DNA of 64,000 bases from NCBI GenBank assembly GCA_020137815.1, contig CM035350.1, positions 3,658,001 through 3,722,000 of the forward strand, read 5' to 3'. This document shows, piece after piece, positions 1,264 to 63,664 of the stretch (within the stretch, counting starts at the first letter, position 1; each line of letters starts with the position of its first letter). A model generated the notes under the pieces. That model worked only from the letters and a program-made list of their open reading frames with translations. It was not told the DNA's origin and searched no databases. Both the position numbers and the translations under genes were made by a program. The stretch is from Hormiphora californensis (lineage: Eukaryota; Animalia; Ctenophora).

Positions 1264-3432
1264 CTACTTCAGACACTCTCCCATGATTTCAATAAACCTC
1301 TGATACTCGATCATGTCGTCCTCCGTCCCACATCCTGTCTGTTCAGCCCAGAGGTGCACCAAATTGCCCCTATTTCCACATCGTTCTGCGTAGTTCATTG
1401 CTGCCGTGCAGGCTGTTGTCATGCTCACTCCCAGTCCCTCGAAGAAATCAGACCTCATGTAGTCAGCCACGCAAGCAGCTCTGTACGGTTCAGGATTGAT
1501 GGATGTCTCATATGTTTTCCAGTCCTCGGCACAGCTAGCAAGTTGTTCGGTTGAGAACATATCGTCACAGAATTGTTCTGCATCCGGTCTCTTGTTCCCG
1601 AACTCTCGCTCCCAATCCCAGAACTTAGTTTTATCACACTTCCCGTACCTGTCCACCTCCCAGGTATCTCCAAATTCCAGGGCGGTCTCCATTTGGATTT
1701 CAGTTTTCCGGGCAAGCATGTCATCGGAGGGATCGCCGTTCATGTTGCCACACAAGCCACAAGTCTTGCTGCCAAACGTGTACTCATCAATGAGAAGCTG
1801 AGTACTCATCAGTCCATCAAACCTGACGGCGTTGATGTGGTTCTTCGCGTCCTTCCAGGTAACCTCCATCCACCCCTCATCGAGTCGTACCCAAACCTCA
1901 CTTCCCTTCCTCCCAACAAACTTCTCCTTGATTCCATCCTGCCTGTACTCAGTCCTTGCCCCGTCCATATTGAGCACCCTGCCCCGCTGCATTTCTATCA
2001 GAATGTCCGTGTTCAGGTAGAAGGTTACGGCTGTGAGACAGCTTCCCTTACCGTGACTAGAGCACGGCTCAAACCTCCCGTAGACATACCAAGATTTGTC
2101 ATTGCAATCCGCACCCAGCACGTACTCACAATGGCCATAGAAATCGAAGGCGTAGTTGTCAAATGTGATGACAGTGGGATCCCCAAACACTTGGCAACTG
2201 GGCCCTGGCCAGGAGTTGAACTCGGGAGGTGAAGTTGTTATTTTTATCTCATGTGAGACGATATCAATGGGCACTGCCTTTCCATTTTTACACTGATGTG
2301 CCACACAAACCACTCCAGGCATATCATCCTTGTCTGTCAGTCTCAGCCTGATTGTGTTGCCATCTCCAAGTTTGCCATTCCAGTCGGGGTTACCGGGAGG
2401 CAGGTCCAGGAGGCCGTCTATCGATGGGGACTCTGTAGTTGGCATGTCTGTAGGCCCATCGTTCGGGAGGGTCCGATACCACGATATAATGGGTGGAGGA
2501 GCGGGCACATCGCCTGAAGGAGCTGCTCGACACGTCAGAGTAAAACTCTTCCCTTCCACCGCCTCAACACGTTTTGGAGGCAGCTCCTTGAAGACTGGTG
2601 GGGTGAACTCAGGACAGAACTGGTTTAAGAAGATGGTGTAGTCTGTGCCCCTCACACAATTATCGTAGTCCAATCTACACGGGTTATAGTAGGTGATACA
2701 GTCAGTGCCACAGAGCGGCTCAAAGGTAGCCCCCACACACTCAGGACAGAGACACTGTGCGGTGCCCTCGTGATGATCCGGTACACACACCTTCCCCTTT
2801 CCACACGTTACATCCTGACATAGATCATACACCCTCAGATAAGCATCCTCGTAGGTAACACCCCGAGTATTTGCAGCCACACACCGGTACCAACCCTCAT
2901 CTGCGTGCTGTACCCGGTCATTCGTCCTGATCACATGGGCCGAGGAAACGGATATCTTTGGGTCATCCTCGTCCTTGAGACGGGGCCGTTCCAAACTCGC
3001 CTCCTCCCGACGGGTGATGGTTAGTTCAGGGGTCGGGGCACCCTCAGCCTTGCACTCAAACTGGTAGGTAGACCCAGGACTAACTGTAATGTTCCGGGGA
3101 CCCTGGATAATAACGGGAGGACTGGCATCCGCATAGGTCCCATCTCCCAGGTCCGTTATGGTGTACCGTGCACTCTGGTGATCGTCAATGACCCGCACAA
3201 ACTCGTCCACACCAAACCGCTCTCGTTTGAAGCTACGACACAGCTCCCCCAGGTCAGGTAGAACGGCCTCACAATGGCTTTTGTGCTCACATAGGACCTC
3301 CAAATCCGTCATTTCCCTACAATCAATGCCCTGAAGAGCGGCGGGGGATGCCTGGCCGACCATGAAGACCAGGACAAGTAGGCCCGTAAACAATTTAGGA
3401 GGAAACATTTTCACGAAGCGATAAACTAACAT
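1264..3432 (-). CDS. Intronless secreted protein: signal peptide, Ig I-set, follistatin/Kazal, Ig, VWD, C8 (mucin/zonadhesin/BMPER-like module)
   Basis: 722-aa ORF. Hydrophobic signal (LFTGLLVLVFMVGQA; second Met at 3408). Ig motifs (FECKAEGAPTP...DEGWYRCVAAN), Kazal (PLCGTDCITYYNPC), VWD (CQVFGDPTVITFD...TCGLCGNMNGDPSDD), C8 (INPEPYRAACVAD...CTAAMNYAERC). Confidence 0.9.
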   Translation of the reverse strand: MLVYRFVKMFPPKLFTGLLVLVFMVGQASPAALQGIDCREMTDLEVLCEHKSHCEAVLPDLGELCRSFKRERFGVDEFVRVIDDHQSARYTITDLGDGTYADASPPVIIQGPRNITVSPGSTYQFECKAEGAPTPELTITRREEASLERPRLKDEDDPKISVSSAHVIRTNDRVQHADEGWYRCVAANTRGVTYEDAYLRVYDLCQDVTCGKGKVCVPDHHEGTAQCLCPECVGATFEPLCGTDCITYYNPCRLDYDNCVRGTDYTIFLNQFCPEFTPPVFKELPPKRVEAVEGKSFTLTCRAAPSGDVPAPPPIISWYRTLPNDGPTDMPTTESPSIDGLLDLPPGNPDWNGKLGDGNTIRLRLTDKDDMPGVVCVAHQCKNGKAVPIDIVSHEIKITTSPPEFNSWPGPSCQVFGDPTVITFDNYAFDFYGHCEYVLGADCNDKSWYVYGRFEPCSSHGKGSCLTAVTFYLNTDILIEMQRGRVLNMDGARTEYRQDGIKEKFVGRKGSEVWVRLDEGWMEVTWKDAKNHINAVRFDGLMSTQLLIDEYTFGSKTCGLCGNMNGDPSDDMLARKTEIQMETALEFGDTWEVDRYGKCDKTKFWDWEREFGNKRPDAEQFCDDMFSTEQLASCAEDWKTYETSINPEPYRAACVADYMRSDFFEGLGVSMTTACTAAMNYAERCGNRGNLVHLWAEQTGCGTEDDMIEYQRFIEIMGECLK

Positions 3433-4930
3433 TGGCTGACGTGGGGAGTCTACTTAAGGGGCCACCGGGAGAGGGCGACTAGCAGTCACGTGACCGGATT
3501 GCTCTGCATATGATTTTGATTATCTTAACCCTTCTCTCTGTTCCACATACATTCACAAGGTCCTCTCTCTCCTTTTTTCTCTCTCTCTCTCCCTCCACCT
3601 CCATTCCTTGGGGGCGAGGCCACTAACTTGTGCAGGAAAACTCTCCTGCAATATCCGGGGTCCCGGGGAGCAGACATTAGAACATAATTATTTCTATGCT
3701 CTGACGTCTGGTTTGTGAGAAGAAGAGAAAACAGCAAGTTTTCGGTATTGAAATCTGTCATTAGAGAGTTTAAAGAATTAACAAAAATTAATCACTCACG
3801 AGAGAAGCTTATAAAAGTGATTTTCTTCGCGAGTCCCTATCATTTGTTGCAGACGCTATTCATGTTTAGGGGTAAATACAGTCAACACACACACACACAC
3901 ACACACACACACTTTACACACGATATATATATCGAAAGATATTTTCATAATGCCATTTTTATACACACGTTATTCTGCGATTTACCCCTTTTTATCTTAC
4001 AGTTTAGCTAACTCAATACTCACTCTCTCTATCTCGGCTCCCCGTCCCTTCTCCCCATATATCAGTTCCAGAAAATGTGTGATCTCGGCGGTCTATTAGG
4101 CAAAATGGTAGGAACACTTTCTACAAGACTTGGAGTGTGTCCTCCAAAAGAGTGCTCGAGCAGAACAGATCAAATAGTGTTAAATACGTAAAATCATTTG
4201 ACTAAAAATAAACGATAAAAAACTTGCTATATGGAACCAACGACTGCGGTGCGACGTGACAGTGCTGCCTCAGTATGTGTGAATGGTGCAGTGAATGGTT
4301 AGATACGTGTGTGCCCTGTCGGGCGGAGCCTGTTAGAGTAGTTACTAGTTAGGGCGATCAACAGATGAGTGTGGGGGAATATGTTATACATTACATGATA
4401 TAGATCATATTATCATTTTTCCTGTGGTATTTCCGTGACAAGCCGATGGGAAGCTCACCTTCCAACATCAATATATTGCTTCATTTTCAATTCGAATTTG
4501 CTCAAAACTACCAAAAATTCTGTCTGGTAGGCGCCTACCCGATCTGAGCGCACTGAGAATCAAAGGTGGGATAAAAACGGGAAAAGGTAGAACTGGACAT
4601 TTTTGAAATGAACGGTGTGGTGGGATGTTTCGAAGGTGCTACAAAATTCTGAGTTTGTCACAGTTTTAACCCTCTGAATCTCACTAATAAACCTCATGAG
4701 CATGTATGTGTGTGTGTGTGTGTGTGTGTATGTGTGTACGACTGTATTATACATGAACTATGTGAGTCTGCGTGTGCATTTATGTGCGAGTCTGTGTATG
4801 AATTAAGCTGACAAGATAACGTCGAATTGAAACACAAAATTTGTGAGTCCTGCCCGCAGTGAGTGGCTATCTCTCCCTCTATCTTTTGTCCATTTTATAC
4901 TTGATACTCAATTTCTAATTTACTCCTCAT

Positions 4931-17890: not shown

Positions 17891-19112
17891 AAAACTTAAA
17901 GAAAGGATGATCAGCATTATGATAATTGTTCTTCCTAGTACATTGAATTTTAGAATTAAATACATTATAATGCTTCTCATTGCATTACTATACGAGCTAT
18001 ACATGTGCTGGAAAACGAAGTTACATTTTGTAACAGATCAAGCCCAGTGTTTTCGAGCAGATCATGTTCTAAGCTGAGATTGGTCAAAAAATTGTAACGG
18101 GTAACGCAGAGATGTGAACATCAAGCAGAAGCCCCTTTTGACGATATAACCAACAAGTCGGTCTAACACATGGATCGTCTCTGTAGTATGCTGTTTAGGA
18201 ATGTCCGCTATATTGGGTGAAGTGGGTGGGTGGGGTGGGGCGGTGGGTAATATTGGACTAAAATGTAGCTGTTACTTTAACATGAGACTAGGCCAGGCCC
18301 GAGAGATAGTTCAGTGGTAACTGGGAGGTCATGTGTGATAGAAATGAGAACTAGAGACAGATTTGAGTTGCATTTTATTGAGGAAAATAGCCCATTTTGG
18401 CGTCTGAGACAAACGAAAGTGAAACGAATTACAATGCAACAAGAGAGTCCCGCTTTCTCGGTTGTTTAGAAATGATTACAATTTACATCAAAGATCATAT
18501 GTCGTAAAAGAGCCTTACATGGGATTAAGTGTCTGTTCAGAGAGATGTTATTCATTTATTAGCGCCTGGATAACGATGTCATGCTGCCCTCTTCGATACA
18601 AAACGGTGTAGTGAGGACCTCAACCATCGGAAATGTTTAGTGACAACGCGACGTCGAGAAAAGATTTCGGAAGAGGGATTGAGTGCCACGTATTCCGAGG
18701 ACCGACTGGCATCACTTTCCAACAGCCGAAGAGAAGCTGCCGAAGAGAGAAATGGGGTAACGTATTACACAATCAGACAGACTTTTAAAGCGACTTTGAC
18801 ACGCAACAACTTAGCCGATTACATGGTGACATGCACTGTTAGTAACATACTTTCTCAAGTTGTACATAACCCTATCAAAAGCCTATTAAATAACGGGTAG
18901 CACATGTGACCATTTAATGTTCAATGTTCACCCCCTGATTTTCGAAAAGTGTATTTCTGCAGTATCTCTGGTTCCTGATAAGATAGACTTCATTCCGAGT
19001 ACAGACCTTTCCAATGCTTCCGGCATGGAGTATGAAGTTTTCATTAGAAGTGTTAAAGGGGGCCGGAGGTGGTGAATAGTACGTAAAAAGGATTAAAAAG
19101 GGACACTGGCCC

Positions 19113-20307
19113 CTGGGCAGGAATCAGTGTGTAATGGTGGATGGAGTGAGGTCACCCTGGGCCGAGGTACTTAGTGGGGTTGCCCAGGGTAGTGTGCTCG
19201 GACCACTTCTTTTCCTCATATATATTCTTGACCTGGAGTCAGTGCTAGACGGTAGCATGTGTCTAACTTTTGCTGACGACACTAAGTTGGTAAAAGCTAT
19301 TTCGGATATGACTAGCCAGGCGTGCCTACAGAACGATCTTTTAAGAGTGGCAGAATGGGCAAAGAAGAACAATATGAAGTTACATGAGGATAAATTTCAG
19401 CTCTTGAGCTATAGTCTGAATAAGTCTGCTATCCTCAGACAGTTTCCTTTCGCAGCTGAAGTGTTTTCATATACTACAAGCTCAGGTGTGCAGTTGACCC
19501 CCGAACCTGATGTTCGTGATCTGGGTGTCCAGATGTCTGCAGATGGGTCATGGACGAGGCACATTGCTATCATAGTGCGGAAGGCTTCCCTCTTGAGTGG
19601 CTGGATATTCAGCGTTTTTCGGGACCGTTCTCCGGAGGTTATGGTACAGCTTTTCAAGTCCTTGGTCAGGCCTATTCTTGAGTACTGTTGCCTAGTCTGG
19701 AACCCTTCCAAGGCTGGTGATATCAAGGCTATTGAGAATGTCCAACGTTGTTTCACCAGACGTCTTGATGGTATGCAGGGTCATGACTATTGGGATAGAC
19801 TGAAATTGCTCAATCTTATGTCCCTTCAGCGTCGGAGACAGCGCTACATTCTGATTCATGTGTGGAAGACGATTCATGGTTTTGTACCTAACTCTGCCAA
19901 CCTAGTATTTCAACAGCACGCTAGACTGGGTATGCGGATAGTCCCACCACCTTACCCCTATAGAGCAGAAACGAAACGAGCTAATCAATTTCACTGCTCA
20001 TTTGGTCCAAGAGCAGCTCATTTATGGAACACTCTACCTGCTGCTGTCAATTCTTGTGTGAGCTTGAATCAGTTCAAATCATCATTGGGCAATTACTTGA
20101 CAGGATTCCACGATCGTCCTCCAGTCAGAGGGTACCCGCCACTTCCAAATGACCTTTCGCCTCAATGTGCTGTGCTGTGCTGATGAGTGTGAGTGTGAAG
20201 GGATAGTTTTTCAACTTGATTTTATTTAGGTGGACCCATTCAGGGAAGGCCTGTTTCTTTATAAATAAAACTTTAATTGTAAACTTGTAAACTTGTAACT
20301 TGTAAAC
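19113..20307 (+). mobile_element. 5'-truncated CR1/L2-clade non-LTR retrotransposon; RT C-terminal ORF 19134-20183
   Basis: SGVAQGSVLGPLLFLIYI and FADDTK RT motifs; VRDLGV, SLVRPILEY, LWNTLP; 3' tandem tail (AAACTTGT)n at about 20276-20307. Confidence 0.93.
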
Positions 20308-23274: not shown

Positions 23275-23645
23275 GGTAAGCGGTAAAGGTTGACCCGTCT
23301 CCTGAGAATTTTATTTTTCTTTGGCCATAACTCAGCCATTTCTTGACCAATTTGCAAAATATTGGGCTCGTTGGAAAGAGGACATTGAGCTCTTTCAGAT
23401 GAGCCCAAGAAAATCCAAATCGGCGCAAATTGCGCGGCTTTGCGCGGCGTAATGGCGCAAAATGCGCGTTTTCGCCACTACGCCGCGCAATTTGCGCCAA
23501 TTTTCATTTCATTGAGCTCATTTTAAAGATCTCAATGCCCTCTTTCCAATGAGCCAAAGATTTTGCAAATTGGTCAAGAAATGGCTGAGTTATGGCCAAA
23601 ACAGTTTTAAATTCTCAGGAGACGGGTCAACCTTTACCGCTTACC
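23275..23645. mobile_element. MULE-like MITE
   Basis: TIRs over 100 bp starting GGTAAGCGGTAAAGGTTGACCCGTCTCCTGAGAATTT; perfect 9-bp TSD CAAAAATGA. Confidence 0.9.
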
Positions 23646-25828: not shown

Positions 25829-25900
25829 TTCAACACGCACGTTGTACATACAAACCACTATTATACATGGAAGGTTTTACAAACATAAACAAGGTTATAA

Positions 25901-26177
25901 GGGTCACCACACACCAAAGTTAAAATTAAAATTAAAATTTTGATTTTAAACCCGCACACACCAGCGGCCGTTAAAATTTCTCTCCCCCATTCTAAAAGTA
26001 ACAATCTCGCGCGCGATTTTAACGGCGTGTTAAAATTTTATCATCCAACGCGACCGTCAAAATCGTGCGTGAGACTGTTACTTTTAGAATGGGGAGAAAC
26101 ATTTTAACGGCCGCTGGTGTGTGTGGGTTTAAAATCAAAATTTTAATTTTAATTTTAACTTCGGTGTGTGGTGACCC
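25901..26177. mobile_element. PIF/Harbinger (Tourist-like) MITE
   Basis: Near-complete hairpin; TIR GGGTCACCACACACC; TAA TSD on both sides. Confidence 0.88.
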
Positions 26178-26292
26178 TAACTGTGTAAAGGCAATGTGGC
26201 TAATGATCTAGCACTATCGATATGAAATAACAATTCTGTCTTTGTAGACACAGGATTCATGTTTTGAGCTTATATACTAATATAATGCATAG

Positions 26293-33312: not shown

Positions 33313-33612
33313 TGTTTTCAGCGGCTAATGATATTTTGGGCCTCCGATTTTATCAATGGGGCATCTTGTGCTGCGCTGATTTTGTTATCTTGATTACTCG
33401 AGAAGTTTATTTTGTATCCTACAGCACCTTGTTGTTGTCACTATTTTAAAAAGCTAAAATTTTCATGTTTAATTTTATATTCTGAGACCGTTTGTTTGTT
33501 TTCCCCCTCTTCAAAACCATAGTACCTTTCCCTATCAGTAACTTGCTTTACAACTTGCTGTTTTGTCCAATGCCCAATCTCTCACCCACTAACATTATTA
33601 TAGCAGCTGGTA

Positions 33613-35813
<2,201 letters not shown>

Positions 35814-39400: not shown

Positions 39401-42095
39401 AGAGAGAGGATCTAGATAGATATGCAATTAAAGTACAAACCTGAGCGAGTTGTCTCATGAGACGGAGGATGGCAACCTGTCGGACATCCTTCGTGTAGGC
39501 AGTCATGGAGGGGTACTTCTCCTCTACCCCCAGCAACATGGTATGGATCTCTGAACACATCTGAAAGGAGAGTGGTAAATCCAGGGATATTGTGGAGTAT
39601 AGTATAGACCTTCGAGAATCGTACCAAAAAGGGGGGGGGGACTACTCTAGGCCTGGGTATCATGGAGTAGGGGATATTTTCGAGACACCCTTGGTCCCAC
39701 CCTTCCCGAAACACACACCCCTACCTTGAGTGGTTTGAAGTCCAATTCGAGAAGTTTAAAGAGAGGCTGGAGTTCCGGGTAGACCTTTCCAGGGATGCCA
39801 TGTTTCACGATATCCTGCACTAGGGTGTCCCGGGTGGGAGCATGGGGCAACTCCAGATAACTAGCAAGGGTCATGTTCTTATCCTTTGTAGCGTTCTGCA
39901 GGTCGAGGTACTTCTCATTCTCGCTCATGGAGGAGGGAAGGGGAATGGCCAAGGTGGCCATGAGGACACCTGAAGCGAGCATCTGTTTTTCCTGCTCGGT
40001 GGCTGTTTTCTTGAGATCCGTAACCAGCTGGTAGTGTTTCATTAGTGCACACGCTTCAAACAACCTGATTAATTTGGGGGTCAGTGTCACAAAGTTATTG
40101 GGGAGGAAGGAGGCAGAATTTATAGAATATAGGGTATACATTACCTGTTACTAGCCTTGCTAAAAACGAGGGCCTGTTGCTTGTAGTAGTTGGCTAGGGC
40201 CTGAGGTTTAGGTCGCTTCTTGCTGAGCTGCATTAACGAGTGGATATCGTGGATCGTCTTGATTGCTTCCTGGGATATTATCATTATTACCAGGCTCCTC
40301 TAGTGTAGGACTGTATTGGATATTACCCATCAATATCCAAGTCAAGAATTAATTTATCTCACCTGCCAGAGGTTGATATTGATGGCACAGTTTATCTCAC
40401 CTGCCACAGGTTGATATTGATGGCACAATTTATCTCACCTGCCACAGGTTGATATTGATGGCACAGTCCAGCTGGTGTAGTCTGGTATCCAGATGAAGTT
40501 GTAGGGACACCGGATCATTCAGATTGACCGAGTTGGTCTGATGACTATGCTTGATCACCAGGTTCAGATGGTTCCTGACACTGTCCGATAGCTTACGGAA
40601 CTCAGCTTTTCGCTCGTACTTGATACAGAAATTGAACGCTGTATGTGAGAGAGAAGACGAATTATTGGAGTTGTCAAATAAACGGTGTATCTCTAGTATC
40701 TCTAGTATCATACCCGGTCTAGATACCACTGATGGTATTGTGGCAACCTAAAACCAGGCACCATGGCAACCTAAAACACCTACCCACTTGGTCACTATGG
40801 CAACCTAAAACACCTACACACTTGGTCACCATGGCAACCTAAAACACCTACCCACTTGGTCACCATGGCAACCTAAAACACCTACCCACTTGGTCACCAT
40901 GGCAACCCAAAACACCTACCCACTTGGTCACCATGGCAACCCACAACACCTACCCATCTGGGCGATATCCTGGTAGAGTTTCTCCACCTTGTTGTTGTTC
41001 TTTAAAATATCCAGAACATGCCTGTAAACCTCCCACAGGAACTTTACCCAAGGTGTCAGCACGGTCCTGTCAGCTCGATCTTGACTGTCCTCTCCAGAAA
41101 CTGTAGCCAACATCAGACTGGGAAGTTTAGTTCGATCAGGGGTTGAAGGTGAGTGGTGAAATATATTAGTGTTTGAAGGAATTGTTTCAGATAATAGTTG
41201 TCAGCAGGGTCTTTGCAGCGATCAAGTGTGGAATCATAAACGAGAACACCGGCGGGGGTTCTCTCCCCAGGCAAGTGCCAGGGGAGAGAGAGACTTCCCC
41301 TACTTCTCGGTGAGTGGGAAATCCTTACTTCTCTGGGGTGTACACCATATCAAGATCGTCTACATCAGCCAGGGTCTCCTTCGCCTCCCTGCTCGCCTCC
41401 TCAGCCCTGTTCTCAGCCATCTGTACAAACCTCCTGATAACCTGAAAAGTGGGGTTGGGGTTTAATAGGGTGGGGGGGGGGGGAGTTATGAAAAATGGGG
41501 GGTTAAAGAGTGGGGGAGTTATAAAAATTGGGGGGGGGGGGGGTAGTTACTAGTTGTCAAAGTGATTATACTGGAATCAACTACTATTTTCAAACTACTC
41601 AAATAATATGAATTTTCTCTCTCTAGGGAATTCAGGTCTTACCTTCTCCAGTGAGTTGATATCAGTGTTCTGGGTCAGAATCTTGTACTGGTATAGACCC
41701 TCCTTGGCAGCGTGCCCTTTCTTCAGATCAACACATAGCTCCAGGTACTGGTTGATGATGGGCTCGTGCACGTCATGCTGATATTGCCGGTGACGTCTCA
41801 TCCGGAGAACCTGGGGGGGGGAGGGGGAGTTATCATTATAAGGTGTAGTTCCCCAGCTAGAAGACCAATCCAAGACCAATACTCTTCATGGCAACTGACA
41901 TCTCACCTCGGTTACCATGGTAACTGACATCTCACCTCGGTTACCATGGCAACTGACAACTCACCTTGGCTACCATGGCAACTGACAACTCACCTCGTGC
42001 AGGGTATCGAGGGCATCGGTGTAGTTTTGGACGCGGATGAACTCCAACGCCCGGCGTAAAGCATGCTCCGGATTATTGTAGTACACCATTGGCAT
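36439..42095 (-). CDS. EIF3A: Eukaryotic translation initiation factor 3 subunit A (about 15 exons)
   Basis: [77 protein letters not shown] region, coiled coil, [10 protein letters not shown]-terminal repeats; stop at 36439-36441. Confidence 0.96.
40745..40956. repeat. Intronic minisatellite, about 6 x 33 bp, containing CCATGGCAAC
   Basis: Unit TTGGTCACCATGGCAACCTAAAACACCTACCCAC abutting an eIF3a donor site. Confidence 0.9.
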
Positions 42096-43686: not shown

Positions 43687-45797
43687 TCAGTAGTACGACT
43701 CGGATAGTTTGATGATCTCCCTAAACGCACTCCCCAGTTTGCCCTGGGTTTGGGAATGTCGGGTTACCTCCCTTGAAATATTGGCAATCTGCTGGTGACA
43801 CAAATGGCACTTCTTGTACCGCTCCTCTCTCGTGATATCGATATGTCCCCCAACCGGGGGTGCATTGATATTGTCCTTGATCAGTTGTCCGAAACTCTTG
43901 ATCACGTGTTTAAGGGTGGCACACGCCACCAGAAGGTGGTTCTCGTGTTTGGAATGGAACAGGACACGAAGGGAGGGCAGGACAATGGTACACACGTGGA
44001 GGTCCCACACCGCGGGGCGAGCCAGCAACACCTGAGAGAGGGCGACATTAATTAGTTGACAATAATTAGTTGATAGGATGGTTATCTCGGGGTGCCTACC
44101 AACGAATCGGGACATGATCATTGTTCCTACATGATATAACTATACCAGTCAATTAAAATTAGACAATCCCCAACCCCAAACAGGGTATTATAATACCTGG
44201 AAAAGATCAACGGTGACACCCTGATCATCCAAACCAAGAGCAACATCTAGTGCCTCCTTCAAGTCGCCCTTAGCCCACACACTCTTGACCAGCTGGAGAT
44301 TTCGTAACCTCTCCTCCAGGTTATCCCTGCAGAAGAAAGATAGTAAGAAAGAGACATCTACAGGAAACTTTATAATCGTCAAATTATCGTCAGAGGGGTA
44401 GATGTATGTATGGTATCCCTACCTGAGGCTCCTATGTCCAGTAGCTGCGTGGTGTAGAAAATCACTTTCCGTCACAGTCTCTGTTGGCCCTTTGTTGTCT
44501 AGTAAACTAATCTTGGCGATGGCTGCCGGGTTGGGTTCAGCTGCAGGTGGTGTGGGTTGTTTGTCCCTCCTGAAGGGTACCTGACCCTGAGATGTCGGTG
44601 CCTGTTGTTCCCAGTGGTGCAGATTCTTCCTTGCACGTGGGGGTGTTCTCTGGAGGGCGCCACGTACTGCAGGGGGCGGGGCCATGTCCCCTCCTACCGC
44701 TGCCGCTGCTGGTTTTGGGGCTGGAGCTGATGGAGTTTCGGCAGGAACGGCGGTTTCAACTAGAGGTGTTAGATCACCGTTGAATGGTTTTAACTTGGCA
44801 ATATCAACCACCCAAACAGACACATTTGTGTGTTGATAGGACGCTCCCATGAGCTGGCCACTCTGTACAGCCAAATCGGACACCTTCCCCCAGAACAGGC
44901 AGAGACTATCGTAGACTCGGGCGGGCTCCCAGCCGTATACCCTCAAACTATCCTCTGCACCACTAAACAATGCCTCTCCCTCAGGACTATACACCACTCT
45001 GCGGATTGGTTTCGCTTGTGGGCTTGTCGTGGATACCAAATCAAAGGTCTCCAAATCCCAGAATTTCACCGTTTTGTCCGAGGATGATGTCGCCAGCAGC
45101 AGCTCACAAGGGTGAAACTGAATATCAGTTATACCAGCGTCATGTTGGGTGAACTCGTGGAGTACCTTGGAGGAACCCAGGTCCCACAGTTTTACCAACC
45201 CATCCTCAGATCCGGTGACAACCCATTTACCGTCCGGGCTAAACTTGAGACAGTTTATTTTACCGCCGTGACCCTTGTATGTACACAAGCAGCCCTGTCT
45301 CCGCGTATCCCATAACCGCACATTGGTGTCCATGGAACCAGAGGCAAGGAACTTGCCAAATGGGTGAAACCCGATCGAGGAAACATTGGCTTTGTGCCCA
45401 GAAAGAGTGCGGATCACTTGAGCACGGTCAATATGCCACACTTTCAAAGTCCCAGATGCACTTCCACCGACCACGTGTTCCTCGGAGCAATCGAAGCCCA
45501 CGCAATCAACGCCGCTTGTGTGTCCAGAGAGACTTTGTGTGACCGTAGGTGACCCTATGGTCCATAAGTTTACCTGCAAAAAGGAAACAATGTACAGATA
45601 TGAACAACAAAAATGTTTGCTACAGTTTTATGGCCTTGTCGATATGATGCAGCTTCATTCGTAAATCTTACTTTTCTGTCCTCTCCACCGGTTGCAAGTA
45701 ATCTGGCTGATTTAGGACTGATCGAGAGACAGTTAACGTTTCCGCCGTGAGCTGCAAACTCCTGGAGCCGCCATGCTCGTTTGCTTTGAAACGTCAT
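43687..45797 (-). CDS. KATNB1: Katanin p80 WD40 repeat-containing subunit B1 (4 exons)
   Basis: [17 protein letters not shown]...[13 protein letters not shown]; six WD40 repeats; C-terminal con80 domain ([37 protein letters not shown]). Confidence 0.96.
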
Positions 45798-47360: not shown

Positions 47361-47843
47361 GAGGCCCCTCGGAAATGTTCAGACAAGTTTAGACAAGTTT
47401 TAGACAAGTTTTAAAAATGATTCAGGTCGGTGTTACCCGACCCAAGAAAATACAATAATAATTTAATTAATAATTTAAAAACACACTCAAAAAATAAATA
47501 TAGTTAAAAAAAGAGGAAATCTGGAGAAGTGGGGAGGGAGATGGGGGAGGGAGAAGGGATCAAGGTATCTGTGTATGGGGGGGGGGGGTGCATAGTGATA
47601 GATTTGGTGGTAAGTGGAGAAGAGAACAGTGTGATTAAGGGAGTGGGAATGACCGGGTGGAAGGGTGAGAGAGAGAAACACGATGCTAAGAGAGAGGTGA
47701 ACAGCAGTGATGTTCAAGTCATGCACAATCAAGTCACGCCCACCAATCACAGCTCAGAACGCGCGGAGTGCTTCGCGCGTTCTGCGCTGTTATTGGTGGG
47801 CATGACTTGATTGTGCATGACTTGAACATTTCCGAGGGGCCTC
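47361..47843. mobile_element. Hairpin MITE with AT flanks (ISL2EU/Harbinger-like), interrupted by a retroposed fragment at 47382-47709
   Basis: TIR GAGGCCCCTCGGAAATGTTCA. The insert has a 7-bp TSD ATGTTCA and a minus-strand tail (AAACTTGTCT)x3. Confidence 0.75.
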
Positions 47844-48001: not shown

Positions 48002-48539
48002 AAGGAACCATAATAAAGTTCAAGAGCGCACCCCATCCAAGAGCGTACCACCTCCAAAAGACACCACTCCAAGAGCGCACCACATCAAAGAGAGCTCCCC
48101 GTCCAGAAGATAAAGTCCATTTTTATTCAACTGTTCACCCTCCAACTCGTGCGCGTGCGATATTTTAATTTACGCTGCGCGCGCTACACGTTAACATGTG
48201 ATAGACGCGCAAAACAATTCCGCGCACGACTTTGGGGGGTGAACAGTTGAAAAAAAATGGAGTATACCGCGCGCAGGGGACACCACGCGCAGAAGAGACC
48301 GCACGCGCAAATACAACGCCGCGCTGGTCTCTTCTGCGCGTGGTGTCCCCTGCGCGTGGTATCTTCTGGATGGGGAGCTCTCTTTGATGTGGTGCGCTCT
48401 TGAAGTGGTGTCTTCTGGAGGTGGTGCGCTCTTGGATGTGGTCTCTTTTGGGTGTGGTGCGCTCTCAGGTGTGGTCTCTCTTCGATCGGGTGCGCTCTTG
48501 GGTGCTCTTGGAGGCTCTTGAACTTTATTATGGTTCCTT
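48002..48539. mobile_element. Hairpin MITE with AT flanks carrying a nested TA-MITE (48113-48264)
   Basis: TIR AAGGAACCATAATAAAGTTCAAGAG; internal CAAGAGCGCACC repeats; the nested element duplicates TA relative to the opposite arm. Confidence 0.85.
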
Positions 48540-56130: not shown

Positions 56131-59100
56131 ATGGGGTGCGGGTCATCTTCTAGTGTGAAGACACAGGTGCGTCGGAGATATTTTTTATTTAGAGACAAAC
56201 ATCTCATTCCATAATAATGTTTACGCTGAACCAATCCCCCCGTTCCTTTTTTTCTCAGACATGTCAGAAGGCATCCCCCCACTTCCTCACCCTTTCCTTT
56301 ATTTCTCCCATGTTATTTCCCCAGCAGACCTCCCCGACGGCCCTATCTGGAAGGGACGAGCCCAGTGACATAGTCCGGGATATCCACGCCAGTATTTACC
56401 AGGATGACGTACTAACTCTCCACAAGTTAATACTCTCTGCTGCACGATCTGAGCAGATTGCCCTCAATCAAAGGTGAGGTGACGTTTTTTAGTTGCTTGT
56501 GGAACCATTTCACGGCTGAGCAAGAAAATAATGTCAAGCTGGGAGTGGTTATTATAAAAAATAGCCCTTAGCTGCACGAGATCTGACATCCCTCTGACGT
56601 ACAATGATGGCCCGAGAATAAGTTGTAAGTTCGAAAATGCCCCTGTATGGTATGATTGGATGGGTTCAAACGTGTCAATTCAAATTGATTATTGTCAGGA
56701 GAAACGAAAGGCTAGAAATAAATCCTGTTCACTCGAGACAGTGTTGATCTGTCAAGAGCCATGGAAACTCTTAATTATCAAAACAAAATATTCGATTATA
56801 TAATACCTCGACCAAAACGCGGAGTTTTTACGTCAGCCGACCCGAAACCGGATTAAATTTTGCCACCTGCTGGTCTCAGGGCCTCGAAATATGTCAAAAT
56901 ATGTCTGAATTGTCATTTGGGGTCATTTAGACCTTTTAATTACATGTAATTACCCTTTAATTACATGTAATTACATTTTAATTACATGTAATTACTTCTA
57001 ATTACATTCCAATTACTTCAGCACCTCGAGAGCTTTCGAACGCACCCTAGAACACCTATCTACTCCTTCTAATTGCCAAGTTCTGTATACCCCTTATTTT
57101 GACTGTTTTTCGCGTCCTACCCCTTATAGGTTTGGGTATGGTCATCGCCACACCCCCTATACGTCGCGGGACCTCGAGACCTTTCCAACGAGCCATAGAA
57201 CACCTCTCTACTACTTCAGGGGGCTTCAAAACTTTCACTCTAAAAATATCTATGGTTATGGTTATGGTTATGGTTTATGGTTTATGGTTTTTTTTCATCT
57301 GGTATTAAGGGCCTGTCGGCTCGGCCCCGTTGTTTTAGTTTTAGGGGGGATGTTTTAGGGGGGATGGGTTGAGTTTGGGTTATATTCGGGTCGGGGGGGC
57401 CTTACCAGGCCCCGAATAGGGTAAGCTGGGGTGAAATGGCCCGCGGGGTAAAGTGGCCCATGTATGGGGCAAAGTGGCCCTAGTTATTACATGTGGTCAC
57501 GTGACATTTTCTCCAGCGGAGACCTGCTCGTTCTGTTCCGAATTTTCGCTTTAAAACTGCTGTCATTTCTGTTTGGGTTGCCCGATTTTAATTTTGCAAA
57601 AACTGCCAGTTAGGCTTTACCTCGACCAAAACGCGGAGTTTTTACGTCAGCCGACCCGAAACCTAATTAAATTTGGCCACCCGCTGGTCTCAGGGTCTCC
57701 AATATGTTAAAATATGTCTGAATTGTCATTTGGGGTCATTTAGACCTTTTAATTACATGTAATTACCCTTTAATTACATGTAATTACATTTTAATTACAT
57801 GTAATTACTTCCAATTACATTCCAATTACTTCAGCACCTCGAGAGCTTTCGAACGCACCCTAGAACACCTTTCTACTCCTTCTAATTGCCGAGTTCTGTA
57901 TACCCCTTATTTTGACTGTTTTTCGCGTCCTACCCCTTATAGGTTTAGGTATGGCCATCACCACACCCCCTATACGTCGCGGGACCTCGAGACCTTTCCA
58001 ACGAGCCATAGAACACCTCTCTACTACTTCAGGGGGCTTCAAAACTTTCACTCTAAAAATATCTATGGTTTTATGGTTTTATGGTTATGGTTATGGTTTT
58101 ATGGTTTTATGGTTTTTTTCATCTGGTATTAAGGGCCTGTCGGCTCGGCCCCGTTGTTTTAGTTTTAGGGGGGATGTTTTAGGGGGGATGGGTTGAGTTT
58201 GGGTTATATTCGGGTCGGGGGGCCTTGCCAGGCCCCGAATGGGCCATGTGACACATGGTTGGGAAAATAAAGCGCCTACAAGTCTTATCACAAATACACT
58301 ACATGAAGGTATGAGACCTAATATATTTTGGATAAAAAACCGTATTGAACAGCTTTATAACACACATACCTTGTTCTTCGGACGACTCTAGTTGTGGTAC
58401 TGCTGGCTGGGCTGGTTGTCACCATTCTACCGGCCGGACTGGGCGGTCCAACCTCCAGATCACTGAGTCCACTAAGACTAGTGTCTGTACTTCCCGCGTC
58501 GCTGGACGCAGGGGATAGTGGCTGGTCCCTCATGTTGAGATAGGATGGCGGCAGTTGGGAGGCTGAGGGGGATTATGTGGGTAAGAGGGTGGCAGTTGGG
58601 AGGCTGAGGGGGATTATGTGGGTAAAAGGGTGGCAGTTGGGAGGCTGAGGGGGATTATGTGGGTAAAAGGTAGAATATTTAGGGTGATGTTATCATAGGG
58701 ATGGGGGGCGAAAGAACGCGTACTTTTGGGAAATATCATGGGGGATTATTATTATATGGGATTAATATATGGGATTATTATTTTTATATGGGTATAATCG
58801 TATCCGGTAGAGTTAATACCACTTTAACATAATATGTTTGATTTGATTTCTAAATAGGGCGGGCTATGACGCTATGGCGTGATTAGAGTGTGTCTTAATA
58901 CTAGGACAGAATTCCATATTCCCATTACATATGCATATAGCAAGAAGAGATATTAGATTATTGATAGTAATAACTCGTGCCATATAATACACTACTGATC
59001 ATATCTTTGTATCATTGTTCACACCAATAGTGTTGGCGGGTGTGGTATTATGACATCGAAGACGCTCATTTATTAGACGTTTCGGCTGTACGGCCATTAT

Positions 59101-62100
59101 CAATAATGCTCAATAAATAGTTTTACGTTGTAGTTGATGAAAGTTTGAAACTTTCATCAACTACAACGTAAAACTATTTATTGAGCATTATTGATAATGG
59201 CCGTACAGCCGAAACGTCTAATAAATGAGCGTCTTCGATGTCATAATACCACACCCGCCAACACTATTGGTGTGAACAATGATACAAAGATATACTACCC
59301 CACCAGCCTCCACCATCTCCAAACACTACTGATCAGTGTTATATGGCCATGACATTTGTCCCTGTTCGCGCTACCAAAGCTTGGCACATATTTATATCGA
59401 GAAATAGCTGCACGTGAAAAACTCACGTGTGTGGTGAACTTCCATCACTTCATCAGCGGCAGGCTCCACTATCTCCCCACGTCTGGGGCTAACTGGGGCC
59501 CTCAACCTCGTCATCGCGTCCACATTGTCCTGTGTCACTGTGGTGAACTCGTGGTCGTAGCTGGGCATGGGATCCTCTATGGACAGGAAGGAAGCACTGG
59601 TAGGAGTTCGGGGATCGATGGAGTCCAACAGATCAGTCATGTCTCCACGCGGCATTCGGATATTAAACAAGCCTGTAGTTCGACTAGCGCCTTGGTCTGA
59701 AAAAGGAGGGGGATCAGTGTTGAAAAGTGTGTGTGTCGAGGACTCAGACTATATGACATATATTTTATAACCACCCAGACTATGACCTATATGATATATT
59801 TTATAGCCACTCAAGTTGTTCTCTTTTTGTCCATGTATCTCTAACTCTCTCCGCTCTTTTCTCGTCTATTTAGCATGTGAATACGAACAAGAATTTTAAA
59901 ATTTCGAACTTTTAGTCCTATTACAAAGTAAGGGCGACATTTCGACTCTTTAAATATTCATCATGATAAATGCATCCTTATAGTTCTCAATAACTAAGTT
60001 GGACTAAAATCATATTGGTACAGAGATCGAAAGCTAACAAAATAAAACAGAATTCCAGCCGGATATCTTACCTTCAATAAGGACAGTATCAATGGCAGTC
60101 CGAGTTTGAGTGAAATCAAAGACTCGATTGGTTTTAAAAGACAATTGTTCGGTACATGCAGTTGACGCTGCCATGTGATGTTTAGTTTGCTAAATACTAT
60201 AATAAGGGGGAAGAGAGAGTTCTTAGTATATGACTAATAGGGGGAGGGGAGTTTTTAGTATGACACAATTTTCATCATAGGAGGAAGCAGGATGCAACAA
60301 AAAAGTAAACCTGACAATTTAAATAATTACACTTTCATTCAGTTGTAAATGATAGAGTTCGAGAGATTCACGCTTGGTAGAAACTGCATGTCTCGTTTAA
60401 ATTGCCCAGTAACCGATATATTAAAGGGGAAGCCATACAAAAGAGCTGTTGTTGTTTTTGGCATTTTGCCCAGCCAGGTGTGGCCGGCTGTGAAACCCAC
60501 TGTAACTATACCATGTAGATTGACGGATATACTCTAGGCTCTAGCTTTAATAATAATTCGGGGCCTGGCAAGGCCCCCCGACCCGAATATAACCCAAACT
60601 CAACCCATCCCCCCTAAAACATCCCCCCTAAAACTAAAACAACGGGGCCGAGCCGACAGGCCCTTAATACCAGATGAAAAAAAACCATAAAACCATAAAA
60701 CCATAACCATAACCATAAAACCATAAAACCATAGATATTTTTAGAGTGAAAGTTTTGAAGCCCCCTGAAGTAGTAGAGAGGTGTTCTATGGCTCGTTGGA
60801 AAGGTCTCGAGGTCCCGCGACGTATAGGGGGTGTGGTGATGGCCATACCTAAACCTATAAGGGGTAGGACGCGAAAAACAGTCAAAATAAGGGGTATACA
60901 GAACTCGGCAATTAGAAGGAGTAGAAAGGTGTTCTAGGGTGCGTTCGAAAGCTCTCGAGGTGCTGAAGTAATTGGAATGTAATTGGAAGTAATTACATGT
61001 AATTAAAATGTAATTACATGTAATTAAAGGGTAATTACATGTAATTAAAAGGTCTAAATGACCCCAAATGACAATTCAGACATATTTTAACATATTGGAG
61101 ACCCTGAGACCAGCGGGTGGCCAAATTTAATTAGGTTTCGGGTCGGCTGACGTAAAAACTCCGCGTTTTGGTCGAGGTAATTAGAGAGAGTTTTAGCTTT
61201 AATAATAACCTCGACCAAAACGCGGAGTTTTTACGTCAGCCGACCCGAAACCTAATTAAATTTGGCCACCCGCTGGTCTCAGGGTCTCCAATATGTTAAA
61301 ATATGTCTGAATTGTCATTTGGGGTCATTTAGACCTTTTAATTACATGTAATTACCCTTTAATTACATGTAATTACATTTTAATTACATGTAATTACTTC
61401 CAATTACATTCCAATTACTTCAGCACCTCGAGAGCTTTCGAACGCACCCTAGAACACCTTTCTACTCCTTCTAATTGCCGAGTTCTGTATACCCCTTATT
61501 TTGACTGTTTTTCGCGTCCTACCCCTTATAGGTTTAGGTATGGCCATCACCACACCCCCTATACGTCGCGGGACCTCGAGACCTTTCCAACGAGCCATAG
61601 AACACCTCTCTACTACTTCAGGGGGCTTCAAAACTTTCACTCTAAAAATATCTATGGTTTTATGGTTTTATGGTTATGGTTATGGTTTTATGGTTTTATG
61701 GTTTTTTTTCATCTGGTATTAAGGGCCTGTCGGCTCGGCCCCGTTGTTTTAGTTTTAGGGGGGATGTTTTAGGGGGGATGGGTTGAGTTTGGGTTATATT
61801 CGGGTCGGGGGGCCTTGCCAGGCCCCGAATAATTCTCTAAAACGTGGTATAAACATTTTTGAAGAAATTGGCATTTTTGTTATCTTAATTGTCAATTTTG
61901 TGAAATCGGGGCAAATATGGCCCACTCTCCGGGGCAAAGTGGTCCGGTCTGGGGCAAAGTGGCCCACCTCTAGGACCAATGAAATGGCGCCTGCAATACC
62001 ACGTGATATTGGAATGCACAAAAATGTAGTACAGACGATCAAATTAGGGGCAAAGTGGCCCATGTTCCGGTGCAGAACATGGGCCACTTTGCCCCTAGTT

Positions 62101-63664
62101 TGATCGTTTCGTCTAACAACACCAGGCACGTGATAAAATCGAGCAATGCTATTGGCTTGGGCCACTTTGCCCCGGTGCAAATTTTCCAAAAAACGCCTCA
62201 CCAAATTATTTGAATTGATTAATTAACCCATTAAATAAAACTTGTAGATATTAAAATTAAGCTCGGCTGAAAGGAAAAGGTTTCATTGGATAGCCTATAT
62301 AATTTTTTTCTTCCTGCTGTATAAATTGCGTATTTTAGAACCTAAAACGTTAAAAGTGGGCCACTTTTACCCCAGCTTACCCTAATATAAATCTACCAAT
62401 ACAATCAAGTTGTCACTTCGACCCCTCCCTTGGCCGTCTGATCGTTATTTAAAAAATGAAAAATATCGATAAATAACAAGTTTGAGGTGACAGCTTCAAA
62501 TAATATACGTTGAACTTGTTTTATACTAATTTACCAAATTAAAGATAAGTCTTTAAGACATTAACTGACCACCTCTCATATGATTTGGTCCACGTTCACT
62601 ATAATTATAAACCTCTGTCTTCCGCTTTTCCACTTCAATTTCCTGGTTTGCCTTTCGTTATCCCGAAACCCGGGGGGAAAAAAAACCCCCCCCCCCCCCC
62701 GGGGGCCCCAAAAATCACCCCTCTTTTCCCACCTTCCCACCCTTTTTTTATCCCCCTAATTCCCAAATTTTTCTTCTCCTTTTCTCTCTCTCCCCTTATC
62801 TCTCTCTCTCTCTCTCTCTCCTCTCTCTCCCCTCCTATCTCTCATTCTTTCTCTCGCTCTCCCCTCTCTCTTCTCTCTCTCTTTTCTACTCCTCTCCATC
62901 TCATCTAAATCCGAAATTTCTACACTCTCTCTCCCTCCAGATATAAGAAAGTGTATGGGTCGCCTCTGTTAGATAGTAAACTGTTGAGTGGGGAAGTATG
63001 GCATCTCCTCCTTGCAGAGAACCTTGTCGAATACCAGCTATCTTCACTGTTTATACAGGTACGGGATAGTTGTTCACAAAAACACAACGATTACAGAAAT
63101 CAAAAGCAAAGGTAAAAGTAATCCTTGATTGCTTTTGTGAATCGATTGCTTTTCTGTCAGAGCATTGGCGATTGGCCTGAGCTTATAATCGGAGCACGCG
63201 AGAACTGCGGTCAGAGCATTGCCGCATTGGCCTGCTTTTGAGTTTTGCTTTTGTGAATATGGGGTTCAATCGACTATGTATTACATAGTATGTAATTTGC
63301 AGCTTGGGTCACCCAAGTTAGGTGTAAAATAGTGTATAGTGTGTTATCAACTACATATTGTTCAGGGTTATGATGTGATGCTGTTACTAGACGTTTTGTT
63401 GTCACAGCAGGGGGTGAACAATGTTAAACAAGTCATTGACAAAGGTAACATCATTTTTCAATTTTATGTTTTCCGTCCTAGTTTTGTCATAGCATGTAAT
63501 ACAATTTATTCGCACAGACTTGAGATTTCTCTCTCTCTTTCATTTGCTCAGATTCTGCTTCAACCCTATAACCAGATGCCCAATGTCTCCCTCTCCTCAG
63601 ATCTGCTGAAGAAGTTGGAGAACGCCCTTTGCAACGAAGAGGAGGTTACGAGCGTAATGCATGA
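56131..63664 (+). CDS. Divergent annexin-like protein with an N-terminal MGCGSS acylation motif; 3'-partial (exons 56131-56166, 56325/8-56473, 62941-63058, 63366-63444, 63492-about 63664)
   Basis: Phase-consistent splicing gives MGCGSSSSVKTQ...LHKLILSAARSEQIALNQR/YKKVYGSPLLD...VKQVIDK/ACNTIYSHRLEISLSLSFAQILL, which resembles annexin repeats. The family call is by eye. Confidence 0.55.
56712..60174 (-). CDS. Nested antisense gene, about 200-aa S/T/P-rich uncharacterised protein (exons 60072-60174, 59427-59696, 58370-58562, 56712-56748)
   Basis: MAASTACTEQLSFKTNRVFDF.../DQGASRTTGLFNIRMPRG.../PSQLPPSYLNMRDQ...VVRRTR/STLSRVNRIYF*. Strong GTAAG/GTGAG/GTATG donors with matching phases; the last exon is less certain. 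Confidence 0.75.
56805..57417 (+). mobile_element. Helentron/DINE-1-like non-autonomous element, family X copy 1 (more diverged)
   Basis: Sub-TIR CCGACCCGAA...TTCGGGTCGG; 3' hairpin GGGGCCT-TACC-AGGCCCC; internal (TTATGG)n; no TSD. Confidence 0.75.
57419..57618. mobile_element. Left part of TIR element Y (TA-GGGTAAGCTGGGGT...)
   Basis: TIR matches 62358-62382; GGGGCAAAGTGGCCC sub-terminal repeats. Confidence 0.75.
57619..58240 (+). mobile_element. Helentron-like family X copy 2
   Basis: Near-identical to copies 3 and 4. Confidence 0.8.
59001..59322. mobile_element. Penelope-like retroelement remnant: inverted pseudo-LTR palindrome plus 29-nt tail
   Basis: 146-bp perfect arms around G59147; tail 59294-59322; 13-bp TSD ACACTACTGATCA (58989-59001, 59323-59335). 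Confidence 0.75.
59186..59222 (+). ncRNA. Minimal type-I hammerhead ribozyme-like motif (U3-A8 variant); mirror copy on the - strand at about 59072-59108
   Basis: ATTA-TTGATAA-T-GGC-CGTACA-GCC-GAAAC-GTC/-TAAT reads as stem I, core, stem II, GAAA, minimal stem III, GUC cleavage triplet, stem I. Confidence 0.6.
60556..61178 (-). mobile_element. Helentron-like family X copy 3 (inverted)
   Basis: Reverse complement of copy 4. Confidence 0.8.
61208..61830 (+). mobile_element. Helentron-like family X copy 4
   Basis: Head-to-head with copy 3 across a 29-bp spacer. Confidence 0.8.
61831..62382. mobile_element. Right part of TIR element Y (...ACCCCAGCTTACCC-TA)
   Basis: TIR followed by TA; multiple GGGGCAAAGTGGCCC / GGGCCACTTTGCCCC repeats. 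Confidence 0.75.

What the first reader, a model, noticed from the sequence alone, without database searches (positions are those of the whole stretch)
58989..59335. Perfect 293-bp palindrome carrying two mirror-image hammerhead ribozyme cores with a U3-A8 compensatory pair, in an intron shared by two antisense genes
Seen: 146-bp perfect arms with a 1-nt loop, a 29-nt tail, a 13-bp TSD, and in each arm ATTA-UUGAUAA-U-GGC..GCC-GAAAC-GUC-UAAU. Known: Penelope-like elements have inverted or tandem pseudo-LTRs, a short tail, and minimal type-I hammerheads with a tiny palindromic stem III proposed to work as dimers. The catalytic core needs a 3-8 Watson-Crick pair, normally C3-G8. Here both positions are changed together (U3-A8), which suggests selection for activity. 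Inference: this is a small non-autonomous Penelope/retrozyme-like element. Because it is palindromic, both the + strand annexin-like pre-mRNA and the - strand nested pre-mRNA would carry one sense ribozyme core. Each would also fold into 146 bp of dsRNA (an ADAR/Dicer substrate) that could silence the ribozyme.
Basis: partly seen in the sequence, partly recalled or inferred. Interest (0 to 1): 0.85.

Follow-up and report, generated by a model that had tools for sequence, protein, structure and literature searches.

The report
Spliced-leader-capped Penelope stub in comb jelly
The mirror-image insertion is real, and its centre is an exact DNA copy of the short leader that comb jellies splice onto their messenger RNAs, joined to the ribozyme-bearing front end of a likely Penelope-type jumping gene, so the insertion was most likely copied, from both sides of the cut, from mature leader-capped messenger RNA; its ribozymes are probably silent here.

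Summary
Palindrome, tail, 13-bp duplication and both U3-A8 hammerhead cores are confirmed. The central 44 nt are a spliced-leader (SL) exon: 44/44 identical to three loci that continue with a GT donor (SL RNA genes), and similar to the published ctenophore leader. The SL joins the element exactly at a 3' splice acceptor that other copies keep unspliced. The rest looks like the front of a Penelope-like mRNA: minimal hammerhead, ATG at stem II, 42 open codons, one-sided tail. Its RT/endonuclease gene was not found. Likely mechanism (inferred): both nicked target strands primed cDNA on SL-capped RNA, both ran to the cap, and the ends annealed through the SL's own near-palindromic start. U3-A8 and opposite-strand hammerhead pairs are already published. 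In either host transcript the core is predicted to be buried in the hairpin, so a ribozyme role here is unlikely. This scan found similar leaderless Penelope palindromes, and SL-headed LINEs, on other DNA before. The SL-tagged Penelope stub was not found in the searched literature; it bears on whether these elements copy sense or antisense RNA.

The parts
58989..59001 (+). left copy of the 13-bp target-site duplication
59002..59146 (-). tail-less arm; element sense on the minus strand; inferred first-strand cDNA primed from the top-strand nick
   Evidence: mechanism inferred
59072..59107 (-). minimal type I hammerhead, mirror copy
59109..59152 (-). complete 44-nt spliced-leader exon, 44/44 identical to the exon of SL RNA gene loci L002, L003, L005
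   Evidence: similar to the leader printed in PMC8527503
59147..59147 (.). centre of the palindrome = 6th base of the leader, the unpaired base of its near-palindromic 5' start; G on plus, C on minus
59142..59185 (+). second leader copy (43/44; differs only at 59147), overlapping the first by 11 nt
59185..59186 (+). trans-splice joint: leader 3' end to element exon; other copies carry a pyrimidine tract ending in AG here
   Evidence: loose ends before 59184
59187..59222 (+). minimal type I hammerhead, U3 59191 / A8 59196, 3-bp stem II, palindromic ACGU in place of stem III, predicted cleavage after 59218
   Evidence: PMC4209133
59197..59322 (+). first 42 codons of the element's reading frame; its ATG is hammerhead A9, the extra U and G10.1
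59294..59322 (+). 29-nt tail, element-derived, present on this side only
   Evidence: high depth through 59321 in 4 of 4 runs, then a drop
59323..59335 (+). right copy of the target-site duplication
   Evidence: X3 record 15
58563..59426 (-). host intron (minus-strand gene of unknown function) holding the insertion
   Evidence: third-position differences in organism B
56474..62940 (+). putative host intron of a plus-strand gene; annexin label unconfirmed
   Evidence: in-frame join only; no family hit

Best explanation
The insertion holds two head-to-head copies of a host spliced-leader exon joined to a minimal hammerhead and the first codons of a likely Penelope-type reading frame, and was most likely written into the intron by reverse transcription of leader-capped mRNA from both sides of a staggered cut. 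Shown: the centre is the SL exon; the SL joins at the element's splice acceptor; the family is multi-copy; the tail is element sequence on one side only; there is a 13-bp duplication. Inferred steps: (1) the element's pre-mRNA is trans-spliced at the acceptor in front of hammerhead stem I; (2) the element's RT-endonuclease nicks both strands 13 nt apart; (3) the top-strand end primes at about +96 of the frame and the bottom-strand end at about +126, the 29-30 nt between the two start points being the tail; (4) because trans-splicing removed everything upstream, both cDNAs stop at the cap after 150-180 nt; (5) their 3' ends, both the complement of the leader's near-palindromic first 11 nt, anneal through 10 base pairs around one G-G mismatch, which was repaired to the G-C seen at 59147; (6) fill-in gives a perfect palindrome. 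The product is a dead-end stub, and its hammerheads are predicted to stay paired to their antisense arms in both host transcripts.
For: SL identity: 3 of 5 metagenome loci found with a leader pattern carry the same 44 nt followed by GTAAG and a U-rich, Sm-like stretch; the other 2 carry 42 nt of it directly before different reading frames. The published ctenophore leader has the same first 13 nt and the same TTGAG end. One protein hit to the frame is labelled Pleurobrachia bachei. Splice joint: loose ends with a pyrimidine tract ending just before the shared AG at 59184 appear in 5 of the 7 runs laid (X1, X6, X7, X9, X14; tables were cut). Contigs that cross the leader-hammerhead joint occur in organism B in two studies (X7 records 20 and 24; X9 record 25), and X1 has summed depth 1449 at 59172-81 against 56-65 in unique flank. 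Penelope-like anatomy: intron end at the 5' side of helix I and an extra base between 9 and 10.1 (PMC4209133); frame starting at stem II, cutting and extension of both strands, two internal RT start sites that define the tail, predicted dimer (PMC11167929); head-to-head inverted pLTR, 31-bp tail, 8-10-bp duplications, pLTR containing the first codons (PMC3846280). All 4 length differences between the window frame and its relatives are whole codons. Copies end near 59288-93 (long contig in X1, X3 and X5; X9 loose end; P0007) or just past 59319 (P0003, P0004, X1/X3 loose end; depth drop). Two cDNA ends anneal at -8.5 kcal/mol, against -0.8 for the single-strand hairpin. A fold-back of the tail-side cDNA would put C, not G, on the plus strand at 59147. 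One X5 contig joins an arm cut short at 59091 to a full leader start at 59142, which needs two cDNAs (one contig, 29-letter side, weak).
Against: No RT or GIY-YIG partner was found, and no genome is held, so Penelope membership rests on anatomy. All runs are contigs labelled 'DNA?', so RNA versus DNA is unsure, and X1/X3 may be the window's own sample. The empty allele and the left junction were not seen. One copy cannot tell annealing of two cDNAs from fold-back of the tail-less cDNA. Independent trans-splicing events cannot be told from one ancient capture. The second end point near 59290 lies next to a variable stretch that can also end alignments.
Confidence: 0.6

Rival explanations
2. One ancestral copy captured the leader once (by trans-splicing or template switching) and became a small non-autonomous master; later copies inherit the leader at the DNA level.
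For: The same joint is found in two organisms and at many times single-copy depth.
Against: The palindrome centre sits at the very start of the leader, as expected if the template began at the cap. Unspliced acceptor forms coexist in the same runs. Whole-codon indels point to protein-coding masters.
Confidence: 0.1
3. One reading: the copy is a functional cis-element whose ribozymes cleave, or whose dsRNA regulates, the two overlapping pre-mRNAs.
For: The core is intact, and the insertion lies in an intron of a conserved minus-strand gene and probably of a plus-strand gene. A 146-bp hairpin is a plausible editing or Dicer substrate (general knowledge).
Against: The antisense arm comes first on both strands; stem I pairing probability is about 1e-44 in the palindrome and 0.001 in the arm alone. 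Published minimal hammerheads cleave poorly even as dimers, or need the element's protein (PMC4209133; PMC11167929). Perfect arms mean a young insertion. In X3 the junction contig has under half the depth of the flank (117 against 263), which fits a polymorphic allele.
Confidence: 0.05
4. Assembly or library fold-back artefact.
For: Perfect palindrome; leaders cause hairpin cDNA artefacts; no contig listed spans the whole insertion, and X1 has no cover at 59332-59401.
Against: A fold-back read cannot create a 13-bp flanking duplication, an element-derived tail on one side only, or unique genomic flanks on both sides. X3 record 15 runs from the tail through the duplication into unique flank with no mismatch (27+36 letters, short of the 31 rule).
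Confidence: 0.03

Closest known systems
Endonuclease-bearing Penelope-like elements with inverted pLTR and tail (Adineta Pen2a, PMC3846280; Anolis PAc, PMC11167929; fig. 2 legend of bioRxiv 10.1101/2021.04.23.441226)
   Same: Head-to-head inverted copies, a 29-30-nt tail on one side, short target duplication, pLTR holding the first codons, frame starting at hammerhead stem II.
   Different: No RT/endonuclease frame in or linked to this copy; the inverted joint lies inside a host spliced leader, not in element sequence; the element's acceptor has been used, whereas Penelope copies are known for keeping introns.
Minimal hammerheads of metazoan Penelope-like elements, including the U3-A8 variant of Schistosoma Cercyon (PMC4209133)
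   Same: No stem III loop, palindromic 15-16 positions, extra base between 9 and 10.1, G10.1-C11.1, 4-bp stem I, U3-A8, pairs on opposite strands.
   Different: Stem II is only 3 bp here (7-8 bp in the Schistosoma families).
Ctenophore spliced leaders and their dispersed genomic copies (PMC8527503: 718 leader copies in Hormiphora)
   Same: Same first 13 nt and same TTGAG end; 44 nt.
   Different: The middle differs (another leader type). The passages read do not link genomic copies to retroelements.
Dinoflagellate retrogenes with DNA-encoded leader relics (PMC5585692, PMC6050394, PMC12014239; search listing and abstract starts only)
   Same: A DNA copy of the leader marks a retrocopy of trans-spliced mRNA.
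   Different: Those are host genes in protists; here it is the element's own mRNA front, doubled into a palindrome.
Non-LTR retrozymes (PMC7229834 listing; bioRxiv 10.64898/2026.07.22.740005, first part read)
   Same: Small, non-coding, type I hammerhead, derived from Penelope-like pLTRs.
   Different: Retrozymes are head-to-tail tandem arrays with active hammerheads in each unit; this is a single inverted pair.
SL-gene-targeting retrotransposons NeSL, SLACS, CZAR, CRE (recalled; names also appear in earlier scan notes)
   Same: Retroelement sequence next to leader sequence.
   Different: Those insert into SL genes. Here there is no SL-gene upstream flank or GT intron, and the leader lies inside the target duplication.

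Membership tests
Penelope-like element (EN+) | RT plus GIY-YIG reading frame in the element or its master | tested here: inconclusive
   Only the first 42 codons are present; no long protein with this start was found; no genome held.
Penelope-like element (EN+) | Minimal type I hammerhead in the pLTR with the frame starting at stem II | tested here: met
   against PMC4209133 and PMC11167929.
Penelope-like element (EN+) | Inverted head-to-head pLTR with a 30-40-nt tail on one end | tested here: met
   29 nt (one codon shorter than relatives), element-derived, one side only.
Penelope-like element (EN+) | Short target-site duplication | tested here: met
   13 bp; the empty allele was not seen.
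Penelope-like element (EN+) | Splice acceptor at the 5' side of hammerhead helix I (as in D. virilis) | tested here: met
   Loose ends before 59184 in 5 of 7 runs; PMC4209133.
Spliced-leader exon | Identical to the exon of a gene that continues with a GT donor and an Sm-like site | tested here: met
   L002, L003, L005 and X14 record 10. The Sm-like site was judged by eye; Rfam has no matching model.
Spliced-leader exon | Found before many unrelated sequences, joined at its AG | tested here: met
   L004, L006 and many unrelated loose ends at 59109.
Spliced-leader exon | Capped 5' end of mRNAs in raw RNA reads | not testable with these tools
   Only contigs were served.
Active hammerhead ribozyme | Self-cleavage after 59218 | not testable with these tools
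   Folding predicts a weak monomer (-2.2 kcal/mol) and burial in the hairpin.
Non-LTR retrozyme | Head-to-tail tandem units, each with a hammerhead | tested here: not met
   Single inverted pair; no other copy in the window.
SL-gene-targeting retrotransposon | Insertion into an SL RNA gene, with gene flanks outside the duplication | tested here: not met
   Loci L002, L003 and L005 match the window over the 44-nt exon only.

The most novel reading that the evidence does not exclude
In comb jellies, trans-splicing of a Penelope-like transcript fixes the 5' end of the reverse-transcription template. The element primes both target strands on capped sense mRNA, and the leader's own near-palindromic start seals the two cDNAs. 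This would be a natural tag showing that head-to-head inverted pLTRs come from sense, processed RNA rather than antisense RNA; it would explain intron retention as survival of the unspliced copies, since spliced templates give only dead stubs; and it would make retroelements a source of the hundreds of scattered leader copies in ctenophore genomes.
Probability: 0.45. Interest if true: 0.65.

Novelty: new variant of a known kind. Interest (0 to 1): 0.5.

Why it matters
How Penelope-like elements make inverted ends and keep introns is unresolved. PMC3846280 (Discussion) favoured self-priming on an antisense template and left the sense alternative open; PMC11167929 showed sense-RNA priming of both strands in vitro. 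A spliced leader can only be added to sense pre-mRNA at an acceptor, so a leader at the inverted joint is genomic evidence for a sense, mature template. It also gives a simple count that separates two models: which strand carries G at the centre, relative to the tail, across copies. The U3-A8 pair and the palindrome alone are ordinary.

Tried and rejected
No whole genome, so copies could not be counted or aligned. Rfam: no hammerhead hit; miRNA hits are hairpin artefacts. DNA pattern scans: exact core in metagenomes 0 hits; leader and frame patterns in viral contigs 0 hits each; gapped core pattern 1 viral and 8 prokaryotic hits, none of the 9 with the cleavage triplet and stem I, taken as chance. 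Partner search: none; five hits, of which 2 (P0005, P0006) are unrelated repeat proteins and were dropped; three short hits; none confirmed among 212 and 48 candidates; Atlas gave only scores under 0.8. I first read the X1/X3 loose end behind 59319 as the master's continuing frame; rejected as unproven because P0003, P0004 and that loose end diverge right after a shared three residues. I first took X5 for RNA; withdrawn, since its label is 'DNA?'. The RT at 19080-20180 reads as a LINE-type RT (type judged by eye) with no hammerhead nearby, so it is not the partner. The tail resembles the nearby 41-nt repeats (58547-58670) only loosely, and depth shows it is family sequence. Absence of cover at 59332-59401 in X1 proves nothing. 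The annexin label was not confirmed. Papers not held: PMC2844618 and PMC5785218. Supplements of PMC8527503 could not be read and may list leader types or loci.
Full report
Observation. The palindrome is exact: arms 59001-59146 and 59148-59293 with G at 59147, a 29-nt tail and a 13-nt direct repeat that occurs only twice in 64 kb. Each arm holds a minimal type I hammerhead core with U3 and A8, an extra U after A9, a 3-bp stem II, ACGU in place of stem III and a 4-bp stem I. A descriptor fitted after the fact finds these 2 sites in the window and none in 200 simulated sequences of the same length. Rfam has no matching hammerhead model. The insertion lies in an in-frame GT-AG intron of a minus-strand gene whose exon differs at third positions in a second organism, and in a putative plus-strand intron whose 'annexin-like' label found no support.

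The centre is a spliced leader. Contigs of public runs laid on the region showed the central 44 nt at far higher depth than the rest (X1: about 58,700 summed, against 56-65 in unique flank), with unrelated flanks at both ends. A metagenome scan with part of this stretch gave 5 loci. Three of them (L002, L003, L005) carry the same 44 nt followed by GTAAG and a U-rich stretch, the layout of an SL RNA gene; two (L004, L006) carry 42 nt of it directly before different reading frames. The leader printed for the ctenophore Hormiphora shares the first 13 nt and the TTGAG end (PMC8527503, passages), and one relative of the element's frame comes from a Pleurobrachia protein set. The host is therefore read as a comb jelly. 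The complete leader is on the minus strand (59152 to 59109); the plus-strand copy differs only at the centre base.

The leader is joined at a splice acceptor. In 5 of the 7 runs laid (X1, X6, X7, X9, X14) some contigs replace the leader with a pyrimidine tract ending just before the AG at 59184-85 (the tables were cut at 129 and 38 hidden rows). Contigs crossing the leader-hammerhead joint occur in organism B in two studies (X7 records 20 and 24, X9 record 25), though none has 31 letters on both sides. If those runs are RNA, they show trans-splicing; if DNA, they show further leader-bearing copies. The labels are 'DNA?'. In D. virilis the Penelope intron ends at the same place, the 5' side of helix I (PMC4209133, parts 1 and 2 of 4 read).

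The rest is the front of a Penelope-like mRNA. The ATG formed by A9, the extra U and G10.1 opens 42 codons that run through the tail, as in the Anolis element, whose frame starts at stem II (PMC11167929, parts 1 and 2 of 4 read). Three of 5 hits in the full protein scan are other copies, a fourth copy came, and all 4 length differences from the window are whole codons. Contigs over the hammerhead in X1 have depths 1603 and 971, which suggests tens of copies (rough; the tool warns that depth is not copy number). Depth stays high through the tail and falls at 59322 in 4 of 4 runs, so the tail is element sequence. Other copies end near 59288-93 or just past 59319, matching the two internal RT start sites that define the tail in vitro. 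No RT or endonuclease partner was found, so membership is by anatomy only.

Mechanism (inferred). A first-strand copy of the leader carries G where the leader has C at base 6. The plus strand has G, so a single cDNA primed at the tail and folded back does not fit; priming from both nicks does. Both cDNAs would stop at the cap, and their ends pair through 10 bp around a G-G mismatch (-8.5 kcal/mol), better than the single-strand hairpin in the same register (-0.8). Fill-in yields the perfect palindrome, the one-sided tail and the duplication. One X5 contig with a shortened arm joined to a full leader start fits two independent cDNAs (weak). Fold-back of the tail-less cDNA remains possible; leader-driven self-priming is known in vitro (PMC9984361, passages).

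Function. On both strands the antisense arm is transcribed first, the hairpin is worth -261 and -269 kcal/mol, and stem I has a computed probability near 1e-44. Published minimal hammerheads are weak or need the element's protein (review PMC6765202, passages). U3-A8 shows no listed substitution across the contigs of 4 runs and is published for Schistosoma elements, along with opposite-strand pairs. It is a family trait and says nothing about selection on this copy. X3 has one contig from tail into flank at depth 117 against 263 for the flank, which fits a real and perhaps heterozygous insertion; the empty allele and left junction were not seen.

Novelty. Inverted pLTRs with tails are standard (PMC3846280, passages and Discussion; bioRxiv 10.1101/2021.04.23.441226, passages; PMC2377424, passages). 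Searches for Penelope with spliced leader, trans-splicing, ctenophores or twin priming (listings only) showed no paper on leader-bearing Penelope copies. The library lacks most subscription journals, two relevant papers were not held, and I recall, unverified, that rotifer telomeric elements may be trans-spliced; PMC6431247 has no such passage. PMC7986045 gave no ctenophore leader (passages). Earlier notes of this scan describe leaderless Penelope palindromes in other genomes, one with the same two-sided priming idea, and leader-headed LINEs in euglenids and dinoflagellates; none matched this sequence or genome. I had written my reading down before seeing them, and they are not independent evidence. 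Verdict: a new variant of a known kind, interest 0.5.

Noticed in passing
L002 2030-2150, L003 1680-1800, L005 1198-1310: The SL RNA gene lies about 1.6 kb upstream of the 18S rRNA start, on the opposite strand, in L002 and L003; L005 is an 87% identical spacer. This suggests the leader gene sits inside the rDNA repeat spacer.
   Followed up: partly
L004 1202-1243 (-), L006 697-738 (+): The same leader stands directly before frames that look like LINE ORF1 proteins (L006 has a PHD finger; L004 judged by eye). In L006 it is next to a LINE RT fragment. Leader-headed LINE copies may be common in this host.
   Followed up: partly
window 56804-57417, 57617-58240, 60552-61834: A 625-bp unit occurs four times; two copies form a 1.28-kb near-perfect palindrome (60552-61834) and three are 99.8% alike. 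It ends in a GC-rich hairpin. No hammerhead was found in it; class unknown.
   Followed up: no
window 58979-59001 and 59336-59347: The target site, read without the insertion, is itself an imperfect inverted repeat (13-bp stem, -9.1 kcal/mol as DNA).
   Followed up: partly
window 59179-59226 (runs X7, X9): In organism B a copy joins leader sequence to 59226 and skips the whole hammerhead: a second acceptor or a microhomology deletion.
   Followed up: no
window 59091/59142 (run X5): In the asymmetric joint a G precedes the leader start, where the SL gene has C; the published leader also starts with G. It may be a copy of the cap; one base, weak.
   Followed up: no
window 58547-58670: Three 41-nt repeats each carry a candidate minus-strand splice acceptor; only the lowest keeps the frame, and an X5 contig lacks two units.
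   Followed up: partly
window 1267-3453 (-), 19080-20180 (+), 33604-33975 (+), 39650-40747 (-), 43690-45627 (-): Pfam hits: Ig plus VWD protein, a LINE-type RT, dihydrouridine synthase, eIF3a exons, and a WD40 frame next to a katanin con80 domain.
   Followed up: no
window 23275-23645, 25900-26178, 47710-47829, 48264-48362: Other, more decayed palindromic repeats (82-92% self-complementary); no leader or hammerhead motif was found in them.
   Followed up: partly
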